Below, piece by piece: positions 1-64,000 of a stretch of DNA of 64,000 nt. Under the pieces are notes generated by a model that ran no database searches, was not told where the DNA came from, and saw only the letters and a list, made by a program, of their open reading frames with translations. Source of the stretch: Heptranchias perlo (lineage: Eukaryota); the NCBI RefSeq assembly GCF_035084215.1, contig NC_090363.1, forward strand, positions 9,362,001 through 9,426,000, written 5' to 3'. Both the position numbers and the translations under genes were made by a program. Positions within the stretch are counted from its first letter, which is position 1; each line of letters starts with the position of its first letter.

Positions 1-245
1 GCACTGCACCGTGTCAGAGGGCAGCACAGTCGCACCAAAAACCGTCCACCCCCAGAGCTCCCTGGCACAAAATAGAGGCCGAGTGTTTCCTTTGCAGTGA
101 GTGAGAGTAACGTTGGGTCTCTCCTCCCCCCTCCCCCCACCTCTGCTCCCCTCCCCCCATCTCTCCTTCCCTCCTCCCGGCCCGCTCCAAAACTGCTCAC
201 CAAGTCCTGGGAGTGGGATGCCCGGCTCCTGACTGTGGGTGGTGT

Positions 246-1529: not shown

Positions 1530-2005
1530 CTGCCCTCTGACCCCGTGAACTTTGGCGGGGTCGCCGATGAGGATCCCAGATTCATGCCTATGGGATCCCA
1601 ACGTTTATGCTGGGATATGTTGACGGTGAATTTATGGCCCCCTGGTGTGGACCTCGTACACCAAACCATCACTTGCGAACGTATTTGTGCCGTAATAGTG
1701 TCTCCCGATCGGCATTTCGGAAAACTTCTGCGGCAGATGAGATTCCAAAGTTCAGGAATTGTCGTGTGTGACGTCGGGTCAGGAGCAAGTTCTGGTTGAC
1801 GAGTCCCAGCGTTGAGAGGAATGTTGCACAACTTAAATCATGAATGACCCCCTCGACTATCAGTGAGATGTGCCATTATCTCCGTAGAGGGAGGTACATT
1901 CTTAGCTGTAGTAACATAATCATTACACCACTGTACCCGTTAATCTATTAGCTCCTTCAACGATATTCACCTTCTCCATATTTGAGAGTTCCCGGCTGCA
2001 CTTTA
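1530..2005 (-). pseudogene. Decayed Ty3/Gypsy reverse-transcriptase fragment
   Basis: Collinear motifs across shifting minus frames: RELSNMEKVNIVE, HISLIVEGVIHDLSCATF, PLNAGTRQPELAPD, LNFGISSAAEVFRNA.RETL, SDGLVY, DPAKV. These match the Gypsy RT order (LDLNAGYHQLEL...LNFGISSAAEVFQ...DDILV...DPAKV). Confidence 0.6.
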
Positions 2006-2024
2006 TTTCAGATATAGAATGACA

Positions 2025-2420
2025 GAATTTTAAGGCACAGAAGGAGACCATTCGGCCCATCGCGCCTGTGCCGGCTCTCTGAGAGAACGATCCAATCAGT
2101 CCCACTCCCCTGCCCTCTCCCTGTACCCTTTCAAATGCTTCTTCCTCAAATATTTATCCACTTGCCTTTTAAGCCATGATCTCATTGAATGGCAGAACAG
2201 GCTCGAGGGGCTGAATGGCCTACGCCTGCTCCTGTGTTCCTAATGGCCGTGATGGATTATACTTCTACCACTGTTTCTGATAGGGGACTGCATGTTCTAA
2301 CGACCTACTGTATTAAAACACACTCCTGACCTTTCCCTTTGTTCTTTTGGTGATGAAGCTAAATGTGTGTCCTCTAGTTAGCGACTAACCGACCAGTGAA
2401 TATAATTATTCCTGATTTCA
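2025..2420 (-). mobile_element. CR1 LINE 3' end fragments
   Basis: CR1 3' terminus (reverse complement of GGGCCGAATGGTCTCCTTCTGTGC), with a short opposite-strand CR1 tail at about 2175-2240. Confidence 0.65.
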
Positions 2421-2689
2421 ACTTTTCAGATTTCCGCTGAACCCCTTGCATTGGGATGAAATTGTTGCTACTGTGTGGTTCCACTGTGTGTATTCTTGTG
2501 TAAATCTGTAGTTGGACTTGGAAATCTGCCTATTCTCTGGAAGTCAGAACGGTCAGCACAGCGTACATCCACTGGGAAGATATTTTCCATCTTGAAACTG
2601 CCAAGCTCATTATCTGGCACAGTCCCCAGGTCTATTGGCGTCAGTTAATTCAGTAAACAACCAGTACTCCTTTCCTCTCCTCCCCTTAC

Positions 2690-5520: not shown

Positions 5521-6062
5521 CAACCAGGAGGGAGGAGGCAGTAGGCGGGATGTGGGGGGAAAGAGGCGGTAGGAGGAATGTGGGGGAGGGGGGAAGAAGG
5601 CAGTCGGGAGCCTATTGGCGCCTGGTAATTGAGTAAATAATGGTGCCTGCATGTCACAGGATGCTGCCTGCCAGAGTTTTGTTTTGAATTAACTTTGCAT
5701 CGGACTTCTCCATGCTAGGCACAAAACAATGAGAAGGAAAAGGGAGGGGCCCCTTTCGGTCGGTGTTTGGCCGTTTGGCCAAGGTGGTCTGCACTCTCGG
5801 TGTTGAGCTGCTTTATTCTTCTACCAGGTTCCTGGGCCGCTCGTGTCTCCTCTGCTTTGCCAGGTTTTCATGCTTCTATTTATAACTGCCTCACCCTTCA
5901 CCCCAAACGTCCTTCAGCTATTCGCAGAGTGAATTGGAAATGTATTTTATCCCTTTGATTTCCCTCATGCCTCCAACTGTCTCCTGTTAATATCACTTCT
6001 CCCAATTAACCATCTCTTGTTTTCTACTTAAGCGGCTTACAGCTCATTCTACCTTTTCTCTC

Positions 6063-6258
6063 GTGTGTGTGCATGTATGTGTGTGTGGCTGTGTCTGCCT
6101 GTGTGTGTATGTGTGTCTGTATCTGTATATGTGTGTGTATATGCGTCTGTTTGTATATGTGAATGTGTCTGCATGTCTATCTGTGTGTCTGTGTGTGTGT
6201 GTGTGTGTTTGTCTGTGCCTCTATGTGTGTGTGTGTGTCTGTGTGCCTGTGTGTGTGA
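6063..6258. repeat. Degenerate (GT)n microsatellite
   Basis: Interrupted GT/GTCT/GTAT dinucleotide run. Confidence 0.95.
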
Positions 6259-6361
6259 GATTCCTCCGGTCTGATGACGTCAATTGCAGTGCATGAGCAC
6301 AGCGCCTGGCTGTTGAGAATCAATGTCCTGGCTGCTGTTCCTGTGCACTTTCCAGGTATAC

Positions 6362-9300
6362 TGAGGTGGGGGTGGGGGGGGAGAATGATCCCTATCTAAT
6401 GGAGATGGGGTGGGGGGAGAGAGAATGTGGTCCAGGTCTAAGGGGGGGGAGAGAGAGAATGTGATCCAGGTCTAAGGGGGGGGGGGGGGGAGAGAGAGAA
6501 TGTGACCCAGGTCTAAGGTGGGGGGGGGAAGAGAGAGAATGTGACCCAGGTCGAAGGGGGGGGGGGGGAGAGAGAGAGAGAATGTGACCCAGGTCTAAGG
6601 GGGAGGGGGGAGAGAGAGAGAGAATGTGACCCAGGTCTAAGGGGGAGGGGGGAGAATGTGACCCAGGTCTAAGGAGGGGGGGGGGAAGAGAGAGAATGTG
6701 ACCCAGGTCAAAGGGGGGGGGGAGAGAGAGAGAGAATGTGACCCAGGTCTAAGGGGGAGGGGGGAGAATGTGATCCAGGTCAAAGGGGAGGGGGGAGAAT
6801 GTGATCCAGGTTTAAGGGGGAGGGGAGGAGAATGTGATCCAGGTCAAAGGGGGAGGGGGGGAGAATCTGATCCAGGTTTAAGGGGGAGGGGGGGGAGAAT
6901 GTGATCCAGGTTTAAGGGGAGGGGAGGGAGAATGTGATCCAGGTCTGGGGGAGGGGAAGGGGGAGAATATGATCCAGGTCTGGGGGGGAGGGGGGAGGGG
7001 GAGAATGTGATCCAGGTCTTGGGGGAGGGGGAAGGGGGAGAATGTGATCCAGGTTTAAGGGGGGGAAGAATGTAATCCAGGTCTAAGGGGGAGGGGGAGG
7101 GAGAATGTGATCCAGGTCTAAGGGGAGGGGAAGGGGGAGAATGTGATCCAGGTCTGGAGGGGGGAGAGAGAGAATGTGATCCAGGTCTGGAGGGGGGGAG
7201 AGAGAGAATGTGATCCAGGTCTGGAGGGGGGAGAGAGAGAATGTGATCCAGGTCTGGAGTGGGGAGAGAGAGAATGTGATCCAGGTCTGGGGGGGAAGGG
7301 GAAGGGAGAATGTGATCCAGGTCTAAGGGCGGGGGGGGGGAATGTGATCCAGGTCTAAGGGGGAGGGGGGAGAATGTGATCCAGGTTTAAGGGGGAGGAG
7401 GGGACAATGTGATCCAGGTTTAAGGGGGAGGGGGGAGAATGTGATCCAGGTCAAAGGGGAGGGGGGAGAATCTGATCCAGGTTTAAGGGGGAGGAGGGGA
7501 GAATGTGATCCAGGTTTAAGGGGGAGGGGGGAGAATGTGATCCAGGTTTAAGTGGGAGAGGGGAGAATGTGATCCAGGTTTATGGCAGGGGGAGAGGGGA
7601 GAATGTGATCCAGGTCTAAGGGGGAGGGGGGGGAGAATGTGATCCAGGTCTGGGGGGGAGGGGGGAGGGGGAGAATGTGATCCAGGTCTTGGGGGGAGGG
7701 GGAAGGGGGAGAATGTGATCCAGGTTTAAGGGGGGGGAGAATGTAATCCAGGTCTAAGGGGGAGGGGGAGGGAGAATGTGATCCAGGTCTAAGGGGAGGG
7801 GGAAGGGGGAGAATGTAATCCAGGTTTAAGGCAGGGGGAGAGAGAGAATGTGATCCAGGTCTAAGGGGGAGGGGGGGAGAATGTGATCCAGGTCTAAGGG
7901 GAGGGGAGGGAGAATGTGATCCAGGTCTGGGGGGGAGGGGGGAGGGGAGAATGTGATCCAGGTCTGGGGGGGGAGGGGGAGAATGTGATCCAGGTCTGGG
8001 GGGGGGAGGGGGAAGAGGGAGAATGTGATCCAGGTTTAAGGGGGGGGGGAATGTAATCCAGGTCTAAGGGGAGGGGGAGGGAGAATGTGTTCCAGGTCTA
8101 AGGGGGGGGAGGGGGAGAATGTGATCCAGGTTTAAGGGGGGGGGGGAGAGAGAATGTGATCCAGGTCTAAGGGGAGGGTGAAGGGGGAGAATGTGATCCA
8201 GGTCTGGAGGGGGGAAGAAAGAGAATGTGATCCAGGTCTAAGGGGAGGGAGGGAGAATGTGATCCAGGTCTAAAAGGAGGGGGAGAATGTGTTCCAGGTC
8301 TGGGGCGAGGGGGGAGGGAGAATGTGATCCAGGTCTCGGGGGGGAGGGGGAGGGGAGAATGTGATCCAGGTCTAAGCGGGGGGGGGAGGGAGAATGTGAT
8401 CCAGGTCTAAGGGGGAGGGGGAGAACGTGATCCAGGTCTGGGGGGGAGGGGAGGGAGAATGTGATCCAGGTCTAAGGGGGAGGGGGAGGAAGAATGTGAT
8501 CCAGGTCTAAGGGGGAGGGGGGAGAATGTGATCCAGGTCTAAGGAGGAGGGGGAGGGAGAATGTGATCCAGGTCTGGGCGAGGGGGGGGGGGAATGTGAT
8601 CCAGGTCTAAGGGGGGGGAGGGGGAGAATGTGATCCAGGTCTAAGGTGGGGGAGGGGGGATAATGTGATCCAGGTCTGGGGGGAGAAAGGGGGAGAATGT
8701 GATCCAGGTCTAAGGGAGGGGGAGAGGGAGAATGTGATCCAGATCTGGGGGGGGGGGAAGGAGGGGGGAGGGAGAATGTGATCCAGGTCTGGGGGGGGTG
8801 CGGGGGGGAGGGAGAGGGAGAATGTGATCCAGGTCTAAGGTGGGGGGGGAGGGAGAGGGAGAATGTGATCCAGGTCTAAAGTGGGGGAGGAGGGGCGGAG
8901 AATGTGATTCAGGTCTAAGGTGGGGGGGGAGGGAGAGGAGAATGTGATCCAGGTCTAAAGTGGGGGGGGGAGGGGGAGGAGAATGTGATTCAGGTCTAAG
9001 GTGGGGGGCGAGGGAGAGGGAGAATGTGATCCAGGTCTAAAGTGGGGGAGTAGGGGGAGGAGAATGTGATCCAGGTCTAAAGTGGGGGAGGAGGGGGCGG
9101 AGAATGTGATCCAGGTCTAAAGTGGGGGGGGAGGGGGCGGAGAATGTGATCCAGGTCTATGGTGGGGGGGGAGGGAGAGGAGAATGTGATCCAGGTCTAA
9201 GTTGGGGGGGGAGGGACAGGAGAATGTGATCCAGGTCTAAAGTGGGGGGGGGAGGGGGAGGAGAATGTGATCCAGGTCTAAGGTGTGGGGGGAGGGTGAG

Positions 9301-12290
9301 GAGAATGTGATCTAGGTCTAAAGTGGCAGGGGAGGGGGAGGAGAATGTGATTCAGGTCTAAGGTGGGGGGGAGGGAGAGGGAGAATGTGATCCAGGTCTA
9401 AGGTGGGGGAGGAGGGGGCGGAGAATGTGATCCAGGTCTAAAGTGGGGGGGGAGGGGGAGGAGAATGTGATCCAGGTCTAAGGTGTGGGGGGAGGGTGAG
9501 GAGAATGTGATCTAGGTCTAAAGTGGCAGGGGAGGGGGAGGAGAATGTGATTCAGGTCTAAGGTGGGGGGGAGGGAGAGGGAGAATGTGATTCAGATCTA
9601 AGGTGGGGGAGGAGGGGGAGGAGAATGTGATTCAGGTCTAAGGTGGGGGGCGAGGGAGAGGGAGAATGTGATCCAGGTCTAAAGTGGGGGAGGAAGGGGA
9701 GGAGAATGTGATCCAGGTCTGGGGGGGGGGGGTGCGGGGGGGAGGGAGAGGGAGAATGTGATCCAGGTCTGAGGTTGGGGGGGGAGGGAGAGGGAGAATG
9801 TGATCGAGGTCTAAGGTGGTGGGGGAGGGGGCGGAGAATGTGATCCAGGTCTAAGGTGGGGGGGGAGGGAGAGGAGAATGTGATCCAGGTCTAAGGTGGG
9901 GGAAGAGAATGTGATCCAGGTCTAAGGTGGGGGAAGAGAATGTGATCCAGGTCTAAGGTGGTGGGGGAGGGGGCGGAGAATGTGATCCAGGTCTAAGGTG
10001 GGGGGGGAGGGAGAGGAGAATGTGATCCAGGTCTCAGGTGGGGGAGGAGGGGGAGGAGAATGTGATCCAGGTCTGAGGTGGGGGAGGAGAATGTGATCCA
10101 GGTCTGCGGTGGGGGAGGACGGAGTGGGAGAATGTGATCCAGGTCTAAGGTGGGGGGGGAGGGGGAGGAGAATGTGATCCAGGTCTGAGGTGGGGGAGGA
10201 GGGGGAGGAGAATGTGATCCAGGTCTAAAGTGGGGGAGGAGGGGAAGGAGAATGTGATCCAGGTCTGAGGTGGGGGAGGAGGGGGAGGAGAATGTGATCC
10301 AGGTCTGAGGTGGGGGAGGACGGAGTGGGAGAATGTGATCCAGGTCTGAGGTGGCGGGGGGAGGGGGAGGAGAATGTGATCCAGGTCTGAGGTGGGGGGG
10401 TGGGAGAAGGAGAATGTGATCCAGGTCTAAGGTGGGGGGGAGGGGGAGGAGAATGTGATCCAGGTCTAAGGTGGGGGTGGCGCGAGAGGGAGAATGTGAT
10501 CCAGGTCTGAGGTGGCGGGGGGAGGGAGAGGGAGAATGTGATCCAGGTCTGAGGTGGCGGGGGGAGGGAGAGGGAGAATGTGATCCAGGTCTAAGGTGGG
10601 GGTGGCGCGAGAGGGAGAATGTGATCCAGGTCTAAAGTGGGGGAGGAGGGGGAGGAGAATGTGATCCAGGTCTAAGGTGGGGGAGGAGGGGGAGGGGGAG
10701 GAGAATGTGATCCAGGTCTGAGGTGGGGGTGGCGCGAGAGGGAGAATGTGATCCAGGTCTAAAGTGGGGGAGGAGAATGTGATCCAGTTCTGAGGTGGGG
10801 GGGGGAGGGAGAGGGAGAATGTGATCCAGGTCTAAAGTGGGGGAGGAGAATGTGATCCAGGTCTGAGGTGGGGGTGGCGCGAGAGGGAGAATGTGATCCA
10901 GGTCTAAAGTGGGGGAGGAGAATGTGATCCAGGTCTAAGATGGGGGAGGAGGGGGAGGAGAATGTGATCCAGGTCTAATGTGGGGGAGGAGGGGGAGGAG
11001 AATGTGATCCAGGTCTAATGTGGGGGAGGAGGGGGAGGAGAATGTGATCCAGGTCTAATGTGGGGGAGGAGGGGTCAGAGAATGTGATCCAGGTCTGGGG
11101 GGGGTGCGGGGGGGGAGGAGAATGTGATCCAGGTCTAAGGTGGGGGGGGAGGGAGAGGGAGAATGTGATCCAGGTCTAAGGTGGGGGAGGAGAATGTGAT
11201 CCAGGTCTGAGGTGGGGGAGGAGAATGTGATCCAGGTCTGGGGTGGGGGAGGAGAATGTGATCCAGGTCTGAGGTGGGGGGAGAGGGAGAGGGAGAATGT
11301 GATCCAGGTCTAAAGTGGGGGAGGAGAATGTGATCCAGGTCTGAGGTGGGGGGTGAGGGAGAGGGAGAATGTGATCCAGGTCTAAGGTGGGGGAGGAGGG
11401 GGAGGAGAATGTGATCCAGGTCTGAGGTGGGGGAGGAGAATGTGATTCAGGTCTAAGGTGGAGGGGGAGGGGAGGAGAATGTGATCCAGGTCTGAGATGG
11501 TGGGGGAGGGAGAGGGAGAATGTGATCCAGGTCTAAAGTGGGGGAGGAGAATGTGATCCAGGTCTGAGGTTGTGGGGGGAGGGAGAGGGAGAATGTGATC
11601 CAGGTCTAAGGTGGGGGGGGAGGGAGAGGGAGAATGTGATCCACGTCTAAGGTGGGGGAGGAGGGGGAGGAGAATGTGATCCAGGTCTAAAGTGGGGGAG
11701 GAGGGGGCGGAGAATGTGATCCAGGTCTGGGGGGGTGCGGGGGGCGGAGGGAGAGGGAGAATGTGATCCAGGTCTAAGGTGGAGGGGGAGGGGAGGAGAA
11801 TGTGATCCAGGTCTGAGGTGGGGGGGAGGGAGAGGGAGAGGGAGAATGTGATCCAGGTCTAAAGTGGGGGAGGAGAATGTGATCCAGGTCTGAGGTGGGG
11901 GGGGAGGGAGAGGGAGAATGTGATCCAGGTCTAAAGTGGGGGAGGAGGGGGAGGAGAATGTGATCCAGGTCTAAGGTGGGGGGGCGGGAGGGAGAGGGAG
12001 AATGTGATCCAGGTCTAAGGTGGGGGAGGAGGGGGAGGAGAATGTGATCCAGGTCTAAGGTGGGGGAGGAGGGAGAGGGAGAATGTGATCCACGTCTAAG
12101 GTGGGGGGGGAGGGGGAGGAGAATGTGATCCAGGTCTAAGTTGGGGGAGGAGGGAGAGGGAGAATGTGATCCAGGTCTAAGGTGGGGGAGGAGGGGGCGG
12201 AGAATGTGATCCAGGTCTGTGGGGGTGCGGGGGGTGGAGGGAGAGGGAGAATGTGATCCAGGTCTAAGGTGGGGGAGGAACATGGACCAG
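6362..12290. repeat. G-rich minisatellite, core GAGAATGTGATCCAGGTCT(A/G)AG plus variable G/A spacer
   Basis: About 5.9 kb with well over 100 units of ~30-50 bp; nearly invariant 19-22-bp core separated by G-run spacers. Confidence 0.97.
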
Positions 12291-26000: not shown

Positions 26001-26634
26001 AACTTTTGTTTTTAATACCAATTGTTGTGAAAACTGTTGGGAACTGGATCACAGTGCTTGAAAGTACAGGGTAATTGGTTTGATCACAGCTTTCCCGTTT
26101 AATCAATAGGCCATTAATTGGGGTGCATTCTCTGCTGGCTGGCCAAAAAGGACAGCTGTTTTGACTGAAATATTACAGTCCCCACCACTTATAGTGGGCG
26201 TGTTGGTGTTCACGTGATAAGTAGCAGACAGCAAAACTGCATCTGGTTAAGACAACAGCAACACTCTGGTAGCTCGAGAGAGGCACTGAGTCCAGTGCAT
26301 GTTCTGGGAAGCAGGGAGGAAACAAAAGAAAATTGGTGCCTGCAAGAGGGTCAAACATCGTATCCTGTGGCATCTCGTTCAAGAGCGGTCTGGTGACAGG
26401 CTCTCCTCTGAGGCAATAGGAATACTTTAAACCTAACCCACCGGGTGGTAAATCCACGGAATCGGGTGGAATGCCAATTTTACACCCCGCCAGGATATGC
26501 TCCCCTTGTTCTCGAGCCCCCACCCTCCTACCAGAGGAAATAATTTCTCTCTATCTACCCTATCGACTCCTTTAATCATCATAAACACTTCAATTAGATC
26601 ACCCCTTAATCTTCTACACTCGAGGGAACACAAA

Positions 26635-33269: not shown

Positions 33270-34930
33270 TTAAAAACAGATAACATTTGTTCGCTGGTGG
33301 GGTAACGTGTATCGTGACATGAACCCAAGATCCCGGTTGAGGCCGTCCTCATGGGTGCGGAACTTGGCTATCAATTTCTGCTCGACGATTTTGCGTTGTC
33401 GTGTGTCTCGAAGGCCGCCTTGGAGTACGCTTACCCGAAGGTCGGTGGCTGAATGTCCTTGACTGCTGAAGTGTTCCCCGACTGGGAGAGAACCCTCCTG
33501 TCTGGCGATTGTTGCGCGGTGTCCGTTCATCCATTGTCGCAGCGTCTGCATGGTCTCGCCAATGTACCATGCTCTGGGGCATCCTTTCCTGCAACGTATG
33601 AGGTAGACAACGTTGGCCGAGTCACAGGAGTATGAACCATGCACCTGGTGGGTGGTGTCCTCTCGTGTGATGGTGGTATCTGTGTCGATGATCTGGCATG
33701 TCTTGCAGAGGTTACCGCGGCAGGGTTGTGTGGTGTCGTGGACGCTGTTCTCTTGAAAGCTAGGTAATTTGCTGCGAACGATGGTCTGTTTGAGGTTGGT
33801 GGCTGTTTAAAGGCGAGTAGTGGAGGTGTGGGGATGGCCATAGCGAGGTGTTCGTCGTCATTGATGACATGTTGAAGGCTGCGGAGAACATGGCGTACTT
33901 TCTCCGCTCCGGGGAAGTACTGGACGACAAAGGGTACTCTGTTGGTTGCGTCCCGTGTTAGTCTCCTGAGGAGGTCTATGCGATTTTTTGCTGTGGCCCG
34001 TCGGAACTGTCGATCGATGAGTCGAGCGTCATATCCCGTTCTTACTAGGGCGTCTTTCAGCGTCTGTAGGTGTCCATCGCGTTCCTCCTCGTCTGAGCAG
34101 ACCCTGTGTATTCGCAGGGCCTGTCCATAGGGGATGGCCTCTTTGACGTGGTTAGGGTGGAAGCTGGAAAAGTGGAGCATCGTGAGGTTGTCCGTGGGCT
34201 TGCGGTAGAGTGAGGTGCTGAGGTGCCCGTCTTTGATGGAGATTCGTGTGTCCAAGAAAGAAACTGATTCTGAGGAGAAGTCCATGGTGAGCTTGATGGT
34301 GGGATGGAACTTGTTGATGTTATCGTGTAGTCTCTTCAGTGATTCTTCGCCGTGGGTCCATAGAAAGAAAATGTCGTCGATGTATCTGGTGTATAGTGTT
34401 GGTTGGAGGTCTTGTGCAGTGAAGAAGTCCTGCTCGAACTTGTGCATGAAAATGTTGGCGTATTGGGGTGCGAATTTGGTCCCCATGGCTATTCCGTGTG
34501 TTTGGGTAAAGAACTGGTTATTGAAGGTGAAGACATTGTGATCCAGGATGAAGCGGATGAGTTGTAGGATGGCGTCCGGAGATTGGCTGTTGTTGGTGTT
34601 GAGTATTGATGCTGTCGCAGCGATGCCGTCATCGTGGGGGATACTGGTGTAGAGTGCCGAGACGTCCATCGTGGTGAGAAGTGTTCCTGGTTCAACTGGT
34701 CCGTGGGTACTGAGTTTTTGTAGGAAGTCTGTAGTGTCGCGACAGAAGCTGGGGGTTCCCTGTACGATGGGTTTCAGGATGCCCTCGATGTATCCAGAGA
34801 GGTTCTCACACAGGGTTCCGTTGCCTGATACGATAGGACGTCCGGGTGTGTTGGCTTTGTGTATCTTTGGGAGGCAGTAGAAGTCTCCCACGCGGGGAGT
34901 ACGTGGGATGAGAGTGCGTAGGATGCTTTG
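33270..34930 (-). pseudogene. Penelope RT + GIY-YIG endonuclease (5'-truncated, one frameshift near 33795)
   Basis: LPKIHK, GRPIVS, DVSALYT, GIAMG, YTRYIDDIF, FLD; after the frameshift NVVYLIRC...WYIGET...RQWMNGH. Confidence 0.92.
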
Positions 34931-35452
34931 AAGGCCATGCAGACACTGCGACAACGGATGAACGGACACCGCGCAACAATCGCCAAACAGGAGGGTTCCC
35001 TCCCAGTCGGGGAACACTTCAGCAGTCAAGGACATTCAGCCACCGACCTTCGGGTAAGCATACTCCAAGGCGGCCTTCGAGACACACGACAACGCAAAAT
35101 CGTCGAGCAGAAATTGATTGCCAAGTTCCGCACCATGAGGACGGCCTCAACCGGGATCTTGGGTTCATGTCACGCTACACGTTACCCCACCAGCGAACAA
35201 ATGTTATCTGTTTTTAATATAACGGGTCAGTTGCTGTCTTTTCGATGTTTCTACCTCTCTAACTCTGTTTTTTTTTTGTTTGTTGTTTTTTTTGGTGATT
35301 TGTATATTCTGTGAGACCTGGCAGGTAACACCTGTCTGTCTGCACACTGATTGCCTTGGCAACGGGCAGTTGAAAAAACTGTCTGTACTCACCAAGCATT
35401 GTTCTGTGAATTATAAATGCGACTTCATTTCGAGGATTTCATTTCCACATCG

Positions 35453-54291: not shown

Positions 54292-55240
54292 ATGGCAGCA
54301 GACCTCGCACCCGTGATATGCCCTTCCTGCACACATGGTCGGCAGGGACACTACCAGTGTCCCTGCCGACCATGTGTGCAGGAAGTGTGTCCACCTGCAG
54401 CTACTGACCGATCGTATCTCGGAGCTGGAGCTGCGGGTGGATTCACTGTGGAGCATCCGCGATGCAGAGAAACTCGTGGATAGTACATTTAGCGAGTTGG
54501 TCACACCGCAGGTAAAGGGTGTACAGGCAGGAAGTGAATGGGTGACCACCAGGCAGAGTAAGAGGTGCAGGCAGGTAGTGCAGGGGTCCCCTGTGGCCAT
54601 CCCCCTCTCAAACAGGTATACCGTTTTGGATGCTGTTGGGGGAGATGGCTCACCAGGGGAAGGTGACAGCGGCCAGGTTCATGGCACCGTGGCTGGCTCT
54701 GCTGCACAGGAGGGCAGGAAAAAGAGTGGCAGAGCTATAGTGATAGGGGACTCGATTGTAAGGGGAATAGACAGGCGTTTCTGCGGACGCAACCGAGACT
54801 TCAGGATGGTATGTTGCCTCCCTGGTGCAAGGGTCAGGGATGTCTCGGAGCGGCTGCAGGACATTCTGGAGGGGGAGGGTGAACAGCCAGTTGTCGTGGT
54901 GCATATAGGTACCAACGATATAGGTAAAAAACGGGATGAGGTCCTACAAGCTGAATTTAGGGAGTTAGGAGTTAAACTAAAAAGTAGGACCTCAAAGGTA
55001 GTAATCTCAGGATTGCTACCAGTGCCACGGGCAAGTCAGAGTAGGAATGACAGGATAGTTAGGATGAATACGTGGCTTGAGAGATGGTGCAAGAGGGAGG
55101 GATTCAAATTCCTGGGCCATTGGAACCGGTTCTGGGGGAGGTGGGACCAGTACAAATTGGGTGGTTTGCATCTGGGCAGGACTGGAACCAACGTCCTAGG
55201 GGGAGTGTTTGCTAGTGCTGTTGGGGAGGCTTTAAACTAA
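54292..55240 (+). CDS. CR1 ORF1 (zinc finger/coiled coil + SGNH esterase), apparent +1 frameshift near 54333
   Basis: MAADLAPVICPSC then ...HVCRKC, leucine heptads, IVIGDSIVR, HIGTND, GGLHL. Confidence 0.85.
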
Positions 55241-58188
55241 TGTGGCAGGGGGATGGGAACCGATGCAGGAAGTCAGTGGGAAGTAAAGTGGTGACAGAAA
55301 CAAAAAGCAGTAAGGGAGAGTGTACAAAACATGACCGGACAGATGGTCTGAGAAAGCAGGGCAAAGACCAAGGGAAGTCTAGATTAAACTGCATTTATTT
55401 CAATGCAAGAAGTCTGATGGGCAAGGCAGATGAACTCAGGGCATGGATGGGTACATGGGACTGGGATGTTATAGCTATTACTGAAACATGGCTAAGGGAG
55501 GGGCAGGACTGGCAGCTCAATGTTCCAGGGTACAGATACTATAGGAAAGATAGAGCAGGAGGTAAGAGAGGAGGGGGAGTTGCGTTCTTGATTATGGAGA
55601 ACATCACGGCAGTAGTGAGAGGGGATATATCCGAGGGTTCGCCCACTGAGTCGATATGGGTAGAACTGAAAAATAAGAAGGGAGAGATCACTTTGATAGG
55701 ATTGTACTACAGACCCCCAAATAGTCAACGGGAAATTGAGGAGCAAATATGTAAGGAGATTACAGACAGCTGCAAGAAAAATAGGGTGGTAATAGTAGGG
55801 GACTTTAACTTTCCCAACATTGACTGGGACAGCCATAGCATCAAGGGCTTGGATGGAGAGAAATTTGTTGAGTGTATTCAGGAGGAATTTCTCATTCAGT
55901 ATGTGGATGGCCCGACTAGAGAGGAGGCAAAACTTGACCTCCTCTTGGGAAATAAGGAAGGGCAGGTGACAGAAGTGTTAGTGAGGGATCACTTTGGGAC
56001 CAGTGATCATAATTCCATTAGTTTTAAGATAGCTATGGAGAATGATAGGACTGGCCCAAAAGTTAAAATTCTAAATTGGGGAAAGGCCAATTTTGATGGT
56101 ATTAGACAAGAACTTTCAGAAGTTGATTGGGAGAGTCTGTTGGCAGGCAAAGGGACGTCTGGTAAGTGGGAGGCTTTCAAAAGTGTGTTAACCAGGGTTC
56201 AGGGTAAGCACATTCCTTATAAAGTGAAGGGCAAGGCTGGTAGAAGTAGGGAACCTTGGATGACTTGGGAGATTGAGGCCCTAGTCAAAAAGAAGAAGGA
56301 GGCATATGACATGCATAGGCAGCTGGGATCAAGTGGATCCCTTGAAGAGTATAGAGATTGCCGGAGTAGAGTTAAGGGAGAAATCAGGAGGGCAAAAAGG
56401 GGACATGAGATTGCTTTGGCAGATAAGGCAAAGAAGAATCCTAAGAGATTCTACAAATACATAAAGGGCAAAAGAGTAACTAGGGAGAGAGTAGGGCCTC
56501 TTAAGGATCAACAAGGTCATCTATGTGCGGAACCACAAGAGATGGGTGAGATCCGAAATGAATATTTCGCATCGGTATTTACGGTTGAGAAAGGCATGGA
56601 TGTTCGGGAACTTGGGGAAATAAATAGTGATGTCTTGAGGAGTGTACATATTACGGAGAGGGAGGTGCTGGAAGTCTTAACGCGCATCAAGGTAGATAAA
56701 TCTCCGGGACCTGATGAAATGTATCCCAGGACGTTATGGGAGGTTAGGGAGGAAATTGCGGGTCCCCTAGCAGAGATATTTGAATCATCGACAACTACAG
56801 GTGAGGTGCCTGAAGATTGGAGGGTAGCAAATGTTGTGCCTTTGTTTAAGAAGGGCGGCAGGGAAAAGCCTGGGAACTACAGACCGGTGAGCCTGACATC
56901 TGTAGTGGGTAAGTTGTTAGAGGGTATTCTGAGAGACAGGATCAACAGGCATTTGGAGAGGCAGGGACTGATTAGGAACAGTCAGCATGGTTTTGTGAGA
57001 GGAAAATCATGTCTCACGAATTTGACTGAGTTTTTTGAAGGGGTAACCAAGAAGATAGATGAGGGCTGTGCAGTAGACGTGGTCTACATGGACTTTAGCA
57101 AAGCCTTTGACAAGGTACCGCATGGTAGGTTGTTACATAAGGTTAAATCTCACGGGATCCAAGGTGAGGTAGCCAATTGGATACAAAATTGGATTGACGA
57201 CAGAAAACAGAGGGTGGTTGTAGAGGGTTGTTTTTCAAACTGGTGGCCTGTGACCAGCGGTGTGCCTCAGGGATCGGTGCTGGGTCCGCTGTTATTTGTT
57301 ATTTATATTAATGATTTGGATGAGAATTTAGGAGGCATGGTTAGTAAGTTTGCAGATGACACCAAGATTGGTGGTATAGTGGACAGTGAAGAAGGTTATC
57401 TAGGATTGCAACGGGATCTTGATAAATTGGGCCAGTGGGCCGATGAATGGCAGATGGAGTTTAATTTTGATAAATGTGAGGTGATGCATTTTGGTAGATC
57501 GAATCGGGCCAGGACCTACTCCGTTAATGGTGGGGCATTGGGGAGAGTTATAGAACAAAGAGATCTCGGAGTACAGGTTCATAGTTCCTTGAAAGTGGAG
57601 TCACAGGTGGATAGGGTGGTGAAGAAGGCATTCAGCATGCTTGGTTTCATTGGTCAGAACATTGAATACAGGAGTTGGGATGTCTTGTTGAAGTTGTACA
57701 AGACATTAGTAAGGCCACACTTTGAATACTGTGTACAGTTCTGGTCACCCTATTATAGAAAGGATATTATTAAACTAGAAAGAGTGCAGAAAAGATTTAC
57801 TAGGATGCTACCGGGACTTGATGCTTTGACTTATAGGGAGAGGTTGGATAGACTGAGACTTTTTCCCCTGGAGAGTAGGAGGTTTAGGGGTGATCTTATA
57901 GAAGTCTATAAAATAATGAGGGGCATAGATAAGGTAGATAGTCAAAATCTTTTCCCAACGGTAGAGGAGTCTATAACGAGGGGGCATAGATTTAAGGTGA
58001 GAGGGGAGAGATACAAAAGGGGCCAGAGGGGCAATTTTTTCACTCAAAGGGTGGTGAGTGTCTGGAACGAGTTGCCAGAGGCAGTAGTAGAGGCGGGTAC
58101 AATTTTGTCTTTTAAAAAGTATTTGGACAGTTACATGGGTAAGATGGGTATAGAGGGATATGGGCCAAGTGCAGGCAATTGGGACTAG
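55240..58188 (+). CDS. CR1 ORF2: AP endonuclease + reverse transcriptase (982 aa, uninterrupted)
   Basis: YFNARS, AITETWL, GDFN, SDH (APE); YRPVSL, QHGF, DFSKAFD, GVPQGSVLGP, FADD (RT). Confidence 0.97.
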   Translation: MWQGDGNRCRKSVGSKVVTETKSSKGECTKHDRTDGLRKQGKDQGKSRLNCIYFNARSLMGKADELRAWMGTWDWDVIAITETWLREGQDWQLNVPGYRYYRKDRAGGKRGGGVAFLIMENITAVVRGDISEGSPTESIWVELKNKKGEITLIGLYYRPPNSQREIEEQICKEITDSCKKNRVVIVGDFNFPNIDWDSHSIKGLDGEKFVECIQEEFLIQYVDGPTREEAKLDLLLGNKEGQVTEVLVRDHFGTSDHNSISFKIAMENDRTGPKVKILNWGKANFDGIRQELSEVDWESLLAGKGTSGKWEAFKSVLTRVQGKHIPYKVKGKAGRSREPWMTWEIEALVKKKKEAYDMHRQLGSSGSLEEYRDCRSRVKGEIRRAKRGHEIALADKAKKNPKRFYKYIKGKRVTRERVGPLKDQQGHLCAEPQEMGEIRNEYFASVFTVEKGMDVRELGEINSDVLRSVHITEREVLEVLTRIKVDKSPGPDEMYPRTLWEVREEIAGPLAEIFESSTTTGEVPEDWRVANVVPLFKKGGREKPGNYRPVSLTSVVGKLLEGILRDRINRHLERQGLIRNSQHGFVRGKSCLTNLTEFFEGVTKKIDEGCAVDVVYMDFSKAFDKVPHGRLLHKVKSHGIQGEVANWIQNWIDDRKQRVVVEGCFSNWWPVTSGVPQGSVLGPLLFVIYINDLDENLGGMVSKFADDTKIGGIVDSEEGYLGLQRDLDKLGQWADEWQMEFNFDKCEVMHFGRSNRARTYSVNGGALGRVIEQRDLGVQVHSSLKVESQVDRVVKKAFSMLGFIGQNIEYRSWDVLLKLYKTLVRPHFEYCVQFWSPYYRKDIIKLERVQKRFTRMLPGLDALTYRERLDRLRLFPLESRRFRGDLIEVYKIMRGIDKVDSQNLFPTVEESITRGHRFKVRGERYKRGQRGNFFTQRVVSVWNELPEAVVEAGTILSFKKYLDSYMGKMGIEGYGPSAGNWD

Positions 58189-58945: not shown

Positions 58946-59018
58946 ATGCAATTTAAAGGAAATGGGACTTCTAGATTGTGTGTCTATCTTTTCACTTTTA
59001 ATCTCTTTGCTCTGATCG
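58946..59018 (+). CDS. Gene B leader exon MQFKGNGTSRLCVYLFTFNLFALI
   Basis: ATG in AAAATGC context, hydrophobic core, phase-1 donor G|GTAAGA in frame with the V exon. Confidence 0.8.
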
Positions 59019-59809
59019 GTAAGAATTTGTTACAATTAATATATGAAAATGTGTGTTTTAACATTTATTTGGAATGTAATAAGAGTTGGAGGAATTATAT
59101 CTGGGATAATACATGTTTAGCGGAACTACTGTTTAACAAAATATACCCACACGCACCTCCGTTCCAATTCTTGCTGAATGAGAACTTCATTTGCTTTGTG
59201 TTTTGACAATTGTTGAGGTTGAGAAAAGGAAAAATTTGCAGGGGTATGGGGAAGGAGCGGGTGAGTGGGACTAATTGGATAGCTCTTTCAAAGAGCTGGC
59301 ACGGGCAAGATGGGCGGAATGGTCGCCTTCTGTGCTGTAAGATTCTAAATAGAATCCCAATTTGCCGAATCAAAACTAGTCAGAATAATTCCAGCGGGCA
59401 GGACTGGCGCTGGTTCAACCATTGTGTAGTCGATATTTTCTCCAACACCGGTGCTGTTTTCACCCATTAGTGTATAATGTGATGGAAAATTATAGAAACG
59501 CCATGTCAGTTAGTCCTTCCACAAATATTAGTGAAAAGTTACCATTATTTAGCGGTGGCCCATTAAATGTTGTTGGACTGTAACTGATGTTGGAGTTCAG
59601 TTCAGTTACAGTGAGCTGTAAAGCAGAATGTTCCCAATATTGTACCAAATGGATCTAGGACCATTATCGTGTCGTGTTGAAATATACTATATAAGACGCG
59701 GGGAATGTTTATTTCAATTAGTTCTACTCTGTAGTTTAAACAATGTTTGTATTTATTATTTAGATATTTTCACTTTTATATTAGAACAATTATTCCCTCT
59801 ACCTTTTAG

Positions 59810-60184
59810 CCGCTGTAACACTGAGAGTGCAACAGGACTGTCTGAATGGAACCGTTGCTCAGTCTGTGCTCCTACCTACCTCATACACAATCTCAGACTC
59901 ACATGGTTACCTTCGGATCAAATGGACGAGAGCCGGGACTAGAATTGTGGAACTTAAATGTACATCCAAGTCAGACAGCAACCTCACTGGATGCAGCCAT
60001 CGTGCATCTGTTCCTGATCGCTACAAACATCGGGCTGTGCTTTTTCCGGAGAATGCATCGTTGCTGCTGAAAGATTTGCAGCTGAACGACAGCGGGACTT
60101 ATGAATTATCCATTAGCCACTCAACAGGTACAGAAAAGGCCAGCTTAATGTTAACAGTCCAGCCCGACACCAGGCATAGAATGG
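59810..60184 (+). CDS. Gene B Ig V-set exon (HEPACAM/CEACAM-like, no B-F disulfide)
   Basis: AVTLRVQQDCLNGTVAQSVLLP...IKW...RYKHRAVLFPENASLLLKDLQLNDSGTYEL...LTV; acceptor CTACCTTTTAG, donor G|GTAGGT, 375 bp, phase 1-1. Confidence 0.92.
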
Positions 60185-60862
60185 GTAGGTACTTTCCCAC
60201 AGTGTGAATTAGCTTTGCTTAATTGTTAAGAACATTTCCAGTCACAATGTATTGAATGGATTAGTGTCAATTGCAGTAGTTTACATTAAGTCTGGGATTT
60301 ATTTTTAGAGCAGTGCAAGGCTTATCCTCTCCGTCACAAAAAGTTTTGATTTTTGAACTTTTCCAGAAGTAGGATTTTTTTAATATATGGCGGGAACATT
60401 TTTAATCTGTATCACTTCATATACCCCACGGAGCTGGATGGAAAACTATAGAAAACGTGTACCGAGTGGTAACCTCTTCACAAAATCATATACCTATTTC
60501 TGGCCCTATCACTAGATTGAAGTCACAATATTAATATGATATTCCTCCGTCCACCATTTTAACGTAATTATTGACCCATTCACTTTAACTGAAGGACAAG
60601 AGGACATAGGTACAAACTGGTAAAAGATAAGTTCACGTCTGATGTCAGGAAGCATTTCTTCATGCAAAGAGAGTGATTAAAGTGGAATTGTCTTGGGGTA
60701 GGGGTCATGGAGGAAAAACTCTGGACTCATTCGAGGGGCGGTTACATACTGTTATGGGGACTGTGGGCTTCTCTGGAAGGATAACGAGAATCGTCTACCT
60801 CACCTTGATGTATCTTCATGGTCACCATTATGTATAAATGCGTAGGCTTCAAGGAGCTCTTG

Positions 60863-60995
60863 AAACATTTGCCTGAGGAAGGAGGAAATCTCCGAAAGCT
60901 TGTGAATTTAAAATAAAATTGCTGGACTATAACTTGGTGTTGTAAAATTGTTTACAATTGTCAACCCCAGTCCATCACCGGCATCTCCACATCAT
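60863..60995 (+). mobile_element. Penelope terminal fragment (hammerhead motif 60868-60906)
   Basis: Nearly identical to 35458-35579. Confidence 0.85.
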
Positions 60996-61409
60996 GACCA
61001 TTAAAGTACAGAGCAGAGGAATGTCATAGGAATGCATTCAGCATTAGCCCACTAATATCGCCAAAAGTAACTTTTTAGTTAGTTCTAGGCTTTGGTTTCA
61101 AAATGAATCACTGATCAGATCATTCTATAGTATAAAAATAGCTCTTACAGTAATTGTCACAAAACCTTACAATCTTCATCAGAAAACAGCCGCCTGTATC
61201 ATTTGATTAAGTATCATTTGCCCTCTTGCGCTTTTGGAGCCAAGACCTGATGTACGTCTTCAGACCCCACAAGGGAAGCAGTGGTCTATTCAGGTTCACA
61301 ACATGAGACTTGCCATGTCTGAGATCAGGGATGGTGGTGTATTGTCACTTCTCTTTATTTTCCATCATGTCATAATTATTCGGTGCTTTCAAAACTGAGG
61401 TTCAATCAA

Positions 61410-62160
61410 AGTCATAGCATCTTACAGCACAGAAGGATCATTCGGCCCATCGCGCCTGTGTTGGCTCTTTGAAAGAGTTATCCAATTAGTCCCACTTCCC
61501 TGCTCATATACTTATCTAGCTTCCCCTTAAATGCTTCTATGCTATTCGCCTCAACTACTCCTTGGGGTAGAGATTTCCACATTCTAACTACTGAAGAGCC
61601 ATGCAATTAGTCCCCACTCTTCCCCCCTCCCCCCCACTCTTTCCCCCCACTCTTCTCCCCCCGTAGCCCTGGAAATGTTTCCTTTTCAAGTATATATACC
61701 GTACCATCCCTGCTGGGAGGGCAAGGTTCTCCTTTTGAAAGTTACTATTGAATTTGCTTCTACCACCCTTGCAGGCAGTGCATTCCAGATCATAACAACT
61801 CACTGCGTAAAAAAATCCTCCTCATCTCCCCTCTGGTTCTTTGGCCAATTATCTTAATCTATGTCCTCTGGTTACTGACCCTCCCGCCAGTCTCCTCATT
61901 TACTCTATCAAAACCCTTCATCATTTTTAACACCTCTGTTAAATCTCCCCTTAACCTTCTCTGCTCTGAGAACAATCCCAGTTTCTTTAGGCTCTCCACA
62001 TAATTGAAGTCCCTCATCCCTGGTACCATTCGAGTAAATCTCCCCTGCAACCTCTCCGAGGCCTTGACGTCCTTCCTAAAGTGTGGTGCACAGAATTGGA
62101 CACAATACTCCAGCTGAGGCCTAACCAGTGATTTATAAAGGTTTATCATAACTTTCTTAT
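61410..62160 (-). mobile_element. CR1 3' fragments
   Basis: INLYKSLVRPQLEYCVQFCAPHFRKDV...RRLRGDL and CR1 3' UTR. Confidence 0.8.
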
Positions 62161-63039
62161 TTAAGGGATCAGCTCACTGATCAATGCTCTGTAGTTCCAT
62201 TTGAAAAATCAAATCAAATGGAGAGCCCTGCCCTCCCAGCAGGGCTGGTACGGTCAAGGGTGAGATGCACCTAAAGTATTAATCAGAAGCCAAGTTGGAG
62301 CAATAGGTGAGGATAAATCAAATTATGGGCCACAAACCATTCAGAATTATCCCTGTAATAATAAGATAGGATTTCTTAACAGCCCACATGAATAATAATT
62401 CAGTTTATGGAGGAGAACATGTTTTATGTCATGCAAATATGTAATATGAATGAATAAGTATTGAGCATGCATGGAATGGTATTTGTGACTGTATATGAAT
62501 GTGGATTATGTATAGTATGTTCAATGCGGAGAAGATAAAGTGAGGATTAAGTTATGTATGTGCAAGTATCTTGATGAGGACTAACCTAACACCTATTGTC
62601 TTTACTGCCTGGATGTTAGGCATCCCTTGGGCGGAGATATTACAGATCAAGATTGAGAGCTAGTAAAGGAATCCATTTTGTCCATCTTATATTAAGCTCT
62701 AGAAATTAAAAGCCTAAAGTTAAAAGCATGCAGAACTTTGCAGTCTCTGCACAGAGTCAGAAGCAGCCTGCTTTCTAGCTCAGGTTAAAAGCTACAGTGA
62801 ATGGAAAAGACTAAGATTTCCACCTTTATTAACAGTAGTACAAATGATTAATTGGAAGCCTTTTACTTAGACATTACTGCAACCTAGGATGTATAAATCA
62901 AATCTAAGTAGTACTGTAGCCCATTCTCCCCACATCAGAGCTTCCTCCCTTCCTAACTGTATTTACTGTAATAACAATTAGTAGTGGCAAATGTTCCTAC
63001 TATTTCAGTGAAATTATTAAATCCTTACATATTGCACAG

Positions 63040-63141
63040 ATGCAGACAAGAAACGAACACCGGGAGTCGAAGCCAAAGTTCGATATGTTAGCCTTATTGT
63101 TATTTTGATCTTCTTGTGTTTTACTGTGAAAACGCGAAGAG
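63040..63141 (+). CDS. Gene B stalk/transmembrane exon DADKKRTPGVEAKVRYVSLIVILIFLCFTVKTRR
   Basis: Acceptor TTGCACAG, donor AG|GTAAGC, 102 bp, phase 1-1; hydrophobic run followed by KTRR stop-transfer. Confidence 0.82.
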
Positions 63142-63262
63142 GTAAGCGGTAATGGTATGACACCGACAATGGTGCCCTTATGTATGCTGTCTCTGTATTT
63201 GTTATTACTTTCCGAGTATATCATTAACTCCCAGTGATAATGTAAAAATGCTTTCTCTTTAG

Positions 63263-63279
63263 ATCATGAAAACCGATGA
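63263..63279 (+). CDS. Gene B terminal coding exon (DHENR-stop)
   Basis: Acceptor GCTTTCTCTTTAG after a 121-bp intron; phase 1 gives a stop after five codons; ATTAAA at ~63321. Confidence 0.55.
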
Positions 63280-63389
63280 AGGAGTTAATCCTTCGTTCAC
63301 AAACAGCTCAGTTCAGCCAAATTAAAATAATATGTTCGTTTTTGTAACGGTGCCCATTTTATTTCCACTCTTTGTTGCCTTTCATCCAA

Positions 63390-63565
63390 AGTTCTGCGCC
63401 CACTGGGTGGCAATCCCACAGGATCGGGTGGAACGCCGGTTTTACACCTCACCCAACATTACTCTCCGTTGAATTCAATGGAGAGTAAAATCAGGCGGGG
63501 TGTAAAACCAGCGTTGCACCCGATCCCGTCAGTTTCCGGATGAGCGAGTTAGGTTAAAATTTCCC
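63390..63565. mobile_element. Palindromic MITE (same family as 39938-40105)
   Basis: Imperfect palindrome centred on CTCTCCGTTGAATTCAATGGAGAG, ending GGTTAAAATTTCCC. Confidence 0.65.
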
Positions 63566-64000
63566 ATAAGAGTCAGAATTAAAGCAATCGATAAATGTGA
63601 ATGGGAAAATATTGTGTGTTTCCAATACATATAAAATGACAGAATTGTTATCAGGCTTGTTTGTTCTCATTTAGCACAGCTCGGGATTTATAAACCATGA
63701 AATAATTCCGACATAGTCCCCATTCTTCCAATTAACATCAAACTAACTGCTCGGTTTAAGAAAACAAACATTTGCCTAGCTCACAACACGGTTGACAGAC
63801 AGTGCTGCTGCTTAACCTGTGACATTCAATCAGTCAGATAAATAGCCTGTTAAAATGAATAGGATTGATAGATGTTCCACACTGTTCCACACATTTTTTT
63901 AATGTGTAATTATTTTAACATGAGGGCATTGATCTAGACTGTGGAGGTGATTTTAACCCCCAAGAACAGGTGGGTTGGGGGCGGGTGGAAGTTGAAAATA

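What the first reader, a model, noticed from the sequence alone, without database searches (positions are those of the whole stretch)
58946..63279. Single-V receptor with TM-edge arginine and 9-residue tail: candidate adaptor-coupled activating receptor
Seen: four exons splice in phase to a 188-aa type I protein. The TM reads AKV-R-YVSLIVILIFLCFTV-KTRR (Arg codon 63081-63083), and the tail KTRRDHENR has no tyrosine. Known: an Arg at the outer end of the TM followed by ~15-16 hydrophobic residues and a short tail is how LILRA, FcalphaRI, GPVI, OSCAR and NKp46 pair with FcRgamma/CD3zeta. Inference: this HEPACAM/CEACAM-like V domain may be wired as an activating immune receptor in a cartilaginous fish. 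HEPACAM itself is V+C2 with a long tail.
Basis: partly seen in the sequence, partly recalled or inferred. Interest (0 to 1): 0.7.

Follow-up and report, generated by a model that had tools for sequence, protein, structure and literature searches.

The report
Shark activating-type paired immune receptor
This shark gene encodes a one-domain cell-surface protein whose last two exons lie beyond the window, so its inner tail is 67 or 16 residues long rather than 9, and an arginine in its membrane helix, kept across sharks and rays, likely makes it an 'on-switch' member of a seemingly undescribed family of paired on/off immune receptors.

Summary
Exons 1-3 and the transmembrane (TM) Arg164 are real and spliced as described. 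Exon 3 joins an exon 253 bp past the window end (3 of 4 runs; 246 aa, 67-aa tail with one YxxM) or skips to the last exon (2 of 4; 195 aa, 16-aa tail). RefSeq lists both for Heptranchias perlo.

The activating reading survives on other evidence. Arg164 sits 16 residues before the cytoplasmic Lys, as does the Asp of this shark's CD3-zeta. The TM is the best-conserved part among shark orthologues. The V-only family (sharks, rays, amphibians, turtles, birds) splits into basic-TM members (4 of 36 with an ITIM/ITSM-like motif) and neutral-TM members (27 of 44). The distal tyrosine is lost in 8 of 9 shark Arg-type tails.

Against: no NxxR motif, no close inhibitory twin in this genome (46% best), no FcR-gamma gene found, and the association is not significant once kinship is allowed for. 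Verdict: a known design (CHIR-A/AB, KIR2DL4-like) in a family I found no paper on; adaptor binding untested.

The parts
58946..59018 (+). Exon 1 coding part: start codon and predicted signal peptide (residues 1-24), phase-1 donor
   Evidence: joint to exon 2 in 1 of 4 runs; identical to the N-terminus of RefSeq isoforms X1 and X3 (P0027, P0028)
59810..60184 (+). Exon 2: single V-set Ig domain without the B-F disulfide (no Cys on the F strand), C-strand Trp63 kept, extra Cys75/Cys86, four N-glycosylation sequons in the mature domain
   Evidence: covered by contigs in 4 of 4 runs
63040..63141 (+). Exon 3: stalk, TM helix (about residues 159-179) with Lys162 and Arg164, and the basic stop-transfer residues from Lys180
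   Evidence: joint from exon 2 in 4 of 4 runs; one match in the genome
63081..63083 (+). Arg164 codon (CGA), 16 residues before Lys180; position 6 of the best 21-residue hydrophobic window
   Evidence: invariant in 13 of 13 Arg-group proteins aligned, which were chosen for carrying it
63263..63279 (+).
   Evidence: joined in 0 of 4 runs; absent from the 3 RefSeq isoforms
63142..64000 (+). Start of intron 3, which runs off the window. Beyond the window lie the true exon 4 (56 nt, C42:9426253-9426308, 253 bp past the end; skipping it shifts the frame and gives the 16-aa tail) and the last coding exon (C42:9438039-9438173; Y213 YxxM, Phe238 in place of the distal Tyr; AATAAA at C42:9438175 and 9438220)
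   Evidence: exon 3-4 joint in 3 of 4 runs, exon 5 start as loose end behind exon 4 (3 runs) and behind exon 3 (2 runs)

Best explanation
The gene encodes a spliced single-V type I membrane protein (246 aa with a 67-aa tail, or 195 aa with a 16-aa tail) that is likely an activating-type member of a V-only paired receptor family of jawed vertebrates, predicted to signal by pairing Arg164 with the transmembrane Asp of the CD3-zeta dimer. Shown: exon structure, two tail forms, Arg position and conservation, a CD3-zeta gene with its Asp in the same register, and the basic/neutral split of the family. Inferred: ligand binding by the V domain would cluster receptor-zeta complexes, Src-family kinases would phosphorylate the zeta ITAMs and Syk/ZAP-70 would be recruited (established knowledge for Arg-TM receptors of other vertebrates). 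Also inferred: the tail descends from the two-tyrosine inhibitory tail of the neutral sister genes and has lost its distal tyrosine; the remaining YxxM would make the long form 'bifunctional' like CHIR-AB, while exon-4 skipping would give a plain activating form. Ligand and cell type are unknown.
For: (1) Register: Arg164 to Lys180 is 16 residues; Asp13 to Lys29 in this shark's CD3-zeta (P0048) is 16. (2) In neutral sisters the same position lies in an uncharged run of about 19 residues (Ile-Leu-Pro-Pro in place of Lys-Val-Arg-Tyr); in ray and amphibian members the residues before the Arg are mostly hydrophobic. (3) Among 10 shark Arg-type proteins mean identity is 81.9% in the TM, 69.8% in V, 49.8% in the stalk and 55-58% in the tail. 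(4) The distal tyrosine column reads F or H in 8 of 9 shark Arg-type tails and Y in 4 of 6 neutral shark/ray tails aligned there. (5) Of 80 family proteins with a TM, 4 of 36 basic-TM and 27 of 44 neutral-TM carry an ITIM/ITSM-like motif; two or more motifs: 0 of 36 and 15 of 44; median tail 30 and 72.5 aa; the basic residue is at window position 4-7 in 33 of 36. (6) V domains of opposite types intermix on the tree; two opposite-type pairs are 92% and 93% identical in V. (7) This genome holds both types on C42: neutral TM with tyrosine motifs at 9339336-9344363 and P0099 at about 1.05-1.07 Mb; an NxxR TM with a stop right behind it at 11622474. (8) A 16-aa-tail form is annotated for the Hemiscyllium orthologue too (P0034).
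Against: No NxxR motif (Ala at R-3), the feature tied to FcR-gamma association (PMC2413239, PMC4536121; passages). Glu160 and Lys162 precede the Arg in sharks; Glu160-Arg164 could form an i,i+4 salt bridge at the membrane surface (inference). No near-identical inhibitory twin in this genome: next V is 46% identical and the TM exon has one match; the gene looks like a stable orthologue, not a fast-turning pair member. The form seen in more runs has a long tail, and Y213 is kept in 4 of 9 shark orthologues; Mustelus keeps both tyrosines. The Fisher p of 3e-6 ignores kinship: only 5 independent pairs lie on well-supported branches (same way 2.6, other way 0.1, no difference 2.3; median p 0.5). 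The Arg group was selected on its motif, which inflates TM identity by three columns. Many tails come from automatic gene models. No expression data by tissue.
Confidence: 0.55

Rival explanations
1. Adaptor-independent adhesion or co-signalling molecule (VSTM5/HEPACAM/CD2-like): the Glu-Ala-Lys-Val-Arg stretch is the outer membrane interface of a short TM, and any signal goes through the protein's own YxxM tail (PI3K) or none.
For: Closest predicted structures in the Atlas are VSTM5 clusters (TM-score 0.50-0.53); no NxxR; charged residues before the Arg; single conserved orthologue without a close inhibitory twin; long tail in the form seen in 3 of 4 runs.
Against: The tyrosines are the least stable part of the tail (both sites lost in 5 of 9 shark orthologues, 4 of them close kin) while the TM is the most conserved part; the Arg stays when the Glu and Lys before it are replaced in rays; family-wide basic/neutral split.
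Confidence: 0.25
2. The Arg is functional but pairs with another partner (a diverged FcR-gamma, DAP10/DAP12-type adaptor, or another membrane protein), or the protein acts mainly as a non-signalling decoy of the inhibitory sisters, with soluble forms.
For: The TM differs from the NxxR type; exon-by-exon genome searches can miss short diverged adaptors; TM-less forms are annotated in relatives (P0001, P0004) and contigs run from exon 2 into intron 2, where a stop follows after 7 codons.
Against: Only CD3-zeta was found with the zeta/gamma profile and with a lizard FcR-gamma query; the Arg lies near the outer end, as the zeta Asp does.
Confidence: 0.15
3. One reading: a 188-aa protein with a 9-residue, tyrosine-free tail is the main product.
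For: The AG at 63261-63262 has a pyrimidine tract and gives an in-frame stop; contigs drop rare variants.
Against: Joined in 0 of 4 runs while two other joints from the same donor are seen; none of 3 RefSeq isoforms and no orthologue retrieved has such a tail.
Confidence: 0.03

Closest known systems
Chicken CHIR-A / CHIR-AB, turkey TILR-AB and human KIR2DL4 (PMC3601082, passages read)
   Same: Basic TM residue with either a short tail (CHIR-A; the 195-aa form here) or a long tail with a tyrosine motif that can be YxxM (CHIR-AB; the 246-aa form here); inhibitory sisters with neutral TM and two ITIMs.
   Different: CHIR have C2-type domains and CHIR-AB two motifs; here one V domain without B-F disulfide, one motif, and both tail types from one gene by exon skipping. 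No homology implied.
NxxR-TM, FcR-gamma-associating receptors: LILRA, NKp46, GPVI, OSCAR, FcalphaR, Xenopus XFL and CD2/SLAM-like genes (PMC2413239, PMC4536121, passages read)
   Same: Arg near the outer (N-terminal) end of the TM; that about 15-16 uncharged residues follow it in those receptors is recalled.
   Different: No Asn at R-3 in this gene (a distant paralogue at C42:11622474 has NxxR); V rather than C2 ectodomain; no FcR-gamma gene found in this genome, only CD3-zeta.
CEACAM paired receptors (PMC5112662, PMC13278318, passages read)
   Same: V-type N domain lacking the B-F disulfide (that CEACAM N domains lack it is recalled); weak sequence hits to CEACAM1/5/6/8; opposite-type members with near-identical V domains.
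   Different: Activating CEACAMs carry their own ITAM-like motif; the Xenopus locus is flanked by lipe and bcl3, whereas LIPE is on C45 here and this gene on C42.
VSTM5 / HEPACAM / A33 (automatic RefSeq names 'A33 antigen-like', 'HEPACAM family member 2-like')
   Same: Similar V fold; VSTM5 shares the single-V, TM, tail layout.
   Different: HEPACAM and A33 have further C2 domains (recalled; Atlas clusters of 264-421 aa); no VSTM5_C match seen; the names are best-hit labels, not orthology.

Membership tests
NxxR-TM / LRC-type FcR-gamma-coupled receptors | NxxR motif at the outer end of the TM | tested here: not met
   Ala161 at R-3 in 10 of 10 shark proteins; motif defined in PMC2413239
NxxR-TM / LRC-type FcR-gamma-coupled receptors | Arg in register with the adaptor's TM Asp | tested here: met
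   16 residues before the first cytoplasmic Lys in both the receptor and this shark's CD3-zeta; a count of residues, not a measured depth
NxxR-TM / LRC-type FcR-gamma-coupled receptors | C2-type Ig ectodomain | tested here: not met
   single V-set domain; exon 2 joins exon 3 directly in 4 of 4 runs
NxxR-TM / LRC-type FcR-gamma-coupled receptors | Short tail without signalling motif | tested here: not met
   67-aa tail with YxxM in 3 of 4 runs; met only by the 16-aa skip form seen in 2 of 4
NxxR-TM / LRC-type FcR-gamma-coupled receptors | FcR-gamma gene available in the genome | tested here: inconclusive
   PF11628 and a lizard FcR-gamma query found only CD3-zeta on C11 plus a weak 17-residue hit on C1; PMC4016189 reports none in sharks (passages); exon-wise searches can miss a diverged gene
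NxxR-TM / LRC-type FcR-gamma-coupled receptors | Physical, Arg-dependent association with the adaptor | not testable with these tools
   needs co-precipitation
Paired receptors (general) | Family holds basic-TM/motif-poor and neutral-TM/ITIM-bearing members with similar ectodomains | tested here: met
   4 of 36 versus 27 of 44 with a motif; opposite-type pairs 92% and 93% identical in V
Paired receptors (general) | This gene has a near-identical opposite-type partner in its own genome | tested here: not met
   next V domain 46% identical among 9 matches, 52 of 52 candidates scored; neutral sisters at 63-67% exist in catshark and sawfish
Bifunctional receptors (CHIR-AB / KIR2DL4 type) | Basic TM residue plus long tail with ITIM/ITSM/YxxM motifs | tested here: inconclusive
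   long form has the Arg and one YxxM; the second site is Phe; CHIR-AB have two motifs
HEPACAM / A33 (CTX-like) | V domain followed by C2 domain(s) | tested here: not met
   direct exon 2-3 joint in 4 of 4 runs; Pfam finds only the V domain in P0027
CEACAM | Locus next to LIPE/BCL3 | tested here: not met
   HSL_N exons on C45, gene on C42; BCL3 not searched; synteny from PMC5112662
CD28 family | F-strand YxC followed by a proline-rich CDR3 motif | tested here: not met
   F strand has Tyr-Glu-Leu, no Cys and no proline motif; motifs from PMC11599192 (passages); only the YxxM is shared
VSTM5 | VSTM5_C (PF28389) tail and orthology | tested here: inconclusive
   no such hit, but the Pfam copy may predate the model; Atlas structure neighbours at TM-score about 0.5 only
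MDIR / CD300 / TREM | CD300/TREM-type V domain | not tested
   no MDIR sequence was compared; they are recalled to keep the B-F disulfide that this V domain lacks

The most novel reading that the evidence does not exclude
An unnamed V-only paired receptor family present from sharks to birds, whose activating members in cartilaginous fish signal through CD3-zeta because FcR-gamma had not yet arisen, and whose conserved shark Arg-type gene switches between a bifunctional (YxxM) and a purely activating form by skipping one 56-nt exon.
Probability: 0.3. Interest if true: 0.65.

Novelty: new member of a known kind. Interest (0 to 1): 0.42.

Why it matters
If right, it adds a family of on/off leukocyte receptors that is at least as old as the shark-tetrapod split and carries only automatic names in the databases. 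It also gives a conserved gene for testing which adaptor sharks use for Arg-TM receptors when FcR-gamma seems absent. The design itself is well known from mammals, birds and frogs, and other windows of this genome hold several other Arg-TM families (unchecked notes), so the surprise is modest.

Tried and rejected
Complex prediction of the TM region (residues 150-190) with a CD3-zeta dimer: no answer (score 0.02, alignments not used, controls not folded); no evidence either way.

The look-up of sequencing runs listed no holder on record as RNA; the four runs are 'RNA?' by guess, though they show GT-AG joints.

A TM-like hit at window 26146-26211 was rejected as an exon: a stop follows it at once and I saw no fitting splice sites.

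The weak second zeta/gamma hit on C1 (E 0.03) lies in a short frame between stops and was not accepted as FcR-gamma.

DAP10 (PF07213) and TCR-alpha C (PF09291) profiles found nothing in the genome, so the planned TCR-alpha register control could not be run; these blanks do not show absence.

A gull cluster labelled TMLHE suggested synteny; TauD-family hits are on C12 and C15, not C42.

Fold searches gave only generic V-set neighbours (VCBP3 Z 16.2, rmsd 2.5, 122 aligned; PD-L1, TIGIT, CAR, CD48 at Z 14.0-14.8) and do not place the family.

The careful tree did not finish; the quick tree (79 rows, 127 columns, 29 of 76 forks open) was used. The independent-pairs test lacks power.

The shark NKp30/B7H6 paper was not held; what I know of NKp30's TM Arg is recall and is not used as evidence.

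Nine paper searches returned no description of this family in their listings; subscription journals are mostly not covered and no supplements were read. The search of earlier findings near this place, by sequence and by words returned nothing.
Full report
1. Observation. Exon 2 is one V-set domain (AlphaFold pLDDT above 90 in most strand blocks). It lacks the B-F disulfide, keeps Trp63 and the D-x-G-x-Y motif, and has an extra Cys75/Cys86 pair. The window is G000:C42:9362001-9426000, so the gene meets the window's edge.

2. The tail is wrong. Contigs of four runs (one sample, one study, RNA by guess) show the exon 1-2 joint in 1 of 4 and the exon 2-3 joint in 4 of 4, but no joint to 63263. A protein search returned RefSeq models 100% identical in V on a contig of C42's length: 246, 232 and 195 aa, named for Heptranchias perlo. 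Their extra exons map to C42:9426253-9426308 and 9438039-9438173. The V and TM exons each have one exact place in the assembly, which speaks against a processed copy as the source of the joints. The products are therefore a 67-aa tail with one tyrosine (Y213, YxxM) and, by frameshift, a 16-aa tail. Contigs cannot exclude a rare third form.

3. Relatives. Close relatives occur in sharks and rays. They share the V domain but have two main kinds of TM: Lys/His/Asn-Val/Ile/Leu-Arg-Tyr, or an uncharged Ile-Leu-Pro-Pro type. Among 10 shark Arg-type proteins the TM (residues 159-180) is 81.9% identical on average, against 69.8% for V, 49.8% for the stalk and 55-58% for the tail; three TM columns are fixed by my selection. 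The distal tyrosine column reads Phe here, His in 7 and Tyr in 1 of the 9 that have this exon, but Tyr in 4 of 6 neutral shark/ray tails and in both turtle-type tails aligned; the proximal tyrosine is kept in 4 of 9. A 16-aa skip form is annotated in Hemiscyllium.

4. The wider family. A profile of the 22-sequence alignment found 253 representatives at E 1e-10 or better; the best 150 were returned. Ten were looked up by name: duck, gull, three frogs, a newt, sawfish, a stingray, a skate and this shark, all with automatic names. I kept proteins of at most 1000 aa with a V score of at least 60 bits and a detectable TM, and dropped a list of 13 isoforms, near copies and a fused model; 80 remained. 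Of 36 with a basic residue in the outer half of the best 21-residue window, 4 have an ITIM/ITSM-like motif and none has two; of 44 scored neutral, 27 have at least one and 15 have two or more; median tails are 30 and 72.5 aa (Fisher p 3e-6). Two of the 44 (P0067, P0181) do carry an Arg that the script missed and were relabelled for the tree; two of the 4 motifs in the basic group (P0013, P0014) look like read-through artefacts of the gene models (my reading). On the V tree (79 rows, P0003 dropped for a partial V; quick method) the label needs 17 changes against 26.6 for shuffles, and the two types intermix within the shark/ray clade. Opposite-type pairs reach 92% and 93% V identity. With kinship allowed for, only 5 independent pairs stand on well-supported branches; they lean the expected way (2.6 against 0.1) but cannot reach significance.

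5. Own genome. C42 carries both types: a neutral-TM gene with tyrosine motifs about 77 kb upstream, a neutral-TM gene with YxxM plus ITSM (P0099) and an NxxR gene with almost no tail. All are distant from the gene studied (V 36-46% identical), so it has no close twin here. The zeta/gamma profile and a lizard FcR-gamma query found one clear gene, CD3-zeta on C11. Its Asp lies 16 residues before the first cytoplasmic Lys, as Arg164 does. PMC4016189 reports no FcR-gamma in the shark genomes then available (passages); PMC6795676 notes CD3 chains in sharks (passages).

6. Mechanism. Most likely (0.55) the protein is an activating-type member that pairs Arg164 with the CD3-zeta Asp and signals through zeta ITAMs. 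The long form would be bifunctional through its YxxM and the short form purely activating. Exon structure, isoforms, conservation and register are shown; membrane depth, adaptor binding, signalling, ligand and cell type are inferred. The main rival (0.25) is an adaptor-independent adhesion or co-signalling protein whose Glu-x-Lys-x-Arg stretch sits at the membrane surface.

7. Comparison. It likely works like CHIR-A/CHIR-AB and KIR2DL4 (PMC3601082, passages) and like NxxR receptors (PMC2413239, PMC4536121, passages), but is a member of none: no C2 domains, no NxxR. It is not HEPACAM (no C2), not at the CEACAM locus as marked by LIPE (PMC5112662 and PMC13278318, passages) and lacks the CD28-family V motifs (PMC11599192, passages). 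Sequence and fold searches give only weak or generic V-set neighbours. Nine paper searches showed no description of the family in their listings; coverage is limited and no supplements were read. Unchecked notes on other pieces of this genome list several other Arg-TM paired families; I did not test them, and they lower the surprise rather than support this case.

8. Verdict. Observation partly confirmed; interpretation partly supported, on different grounds. New member of a known kind; interest 0.42.

Noticed in passing
window 60185-60917: Contigs of 3 of 4 runs continue from exon 2 into intron 2 up to about 60857; the frame stops at 60205-60207 and an AATAAA lies at 60912. This could be a secreted V-only form (156 aa) or unspliced RNA.
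   Followed up: partly
window 31361-31047 and 20506-20207, minus strand: A V-set exon and a C2/I-set exon, probably of one other Ig-superfamily gene lying head-to-head with the gene studied; TM and tail not traced.
   Followed up: partly
G000:C42:9339336-9344363 (L013, L014), about 77 kb upstream, same strand: A distant paralogue (V 46% identical) with a neutral TM exon and a last exon holding an ITIM-like VxYxxL and a second tyrosine motif: likely inhibitory type.
   Followed up: yes
G000:C42:11619059-11622599 (L016, L017): A distant paralogue whose TM exon has a canonical NxxR motif and a stop right after the helix: a cleaner activating-type candidate than the gene studied.
   Followed up: partly
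G000:C42:9452441-9461127 (L012, L025): Two similar V exons and a C2 exon just downstream; similar sequence is fused to the orthologue in a bamboo-shark gene model (P0017), and a V-C2 unit is fused to a family V domain in P0070, so the neighbourhood seems conserved (by eye).
   Followed up: partly
window from 58644: Alternative first coding exon of RefSeq isoform X2 (P0009), without an evident signal peptide; its joint was not tested.
   Followed up: no
window 55216-58185 (+) and 33530-35035 (-): A 990-codon endonuclease/reverse-transcriptase frame (LINE) ends about 760 bp before the start codon; a second RT frame of 502 codons lies further up. Much of the window looks repeat-derived.
   Followed up: no
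window 2001-12000: GC-rich tract whose GC skew flips from about -0.69 to +0.7 near 6000: probably an inverted block of simple repeats.
   Followed up: no
P0062, P0063: Duck and frog family members built of 5-6 tandem V domains, one with a neutral TM and two tyrosine motifs, the other with a TM Arg and a 5-6 aa tail.
   Followed up: partly
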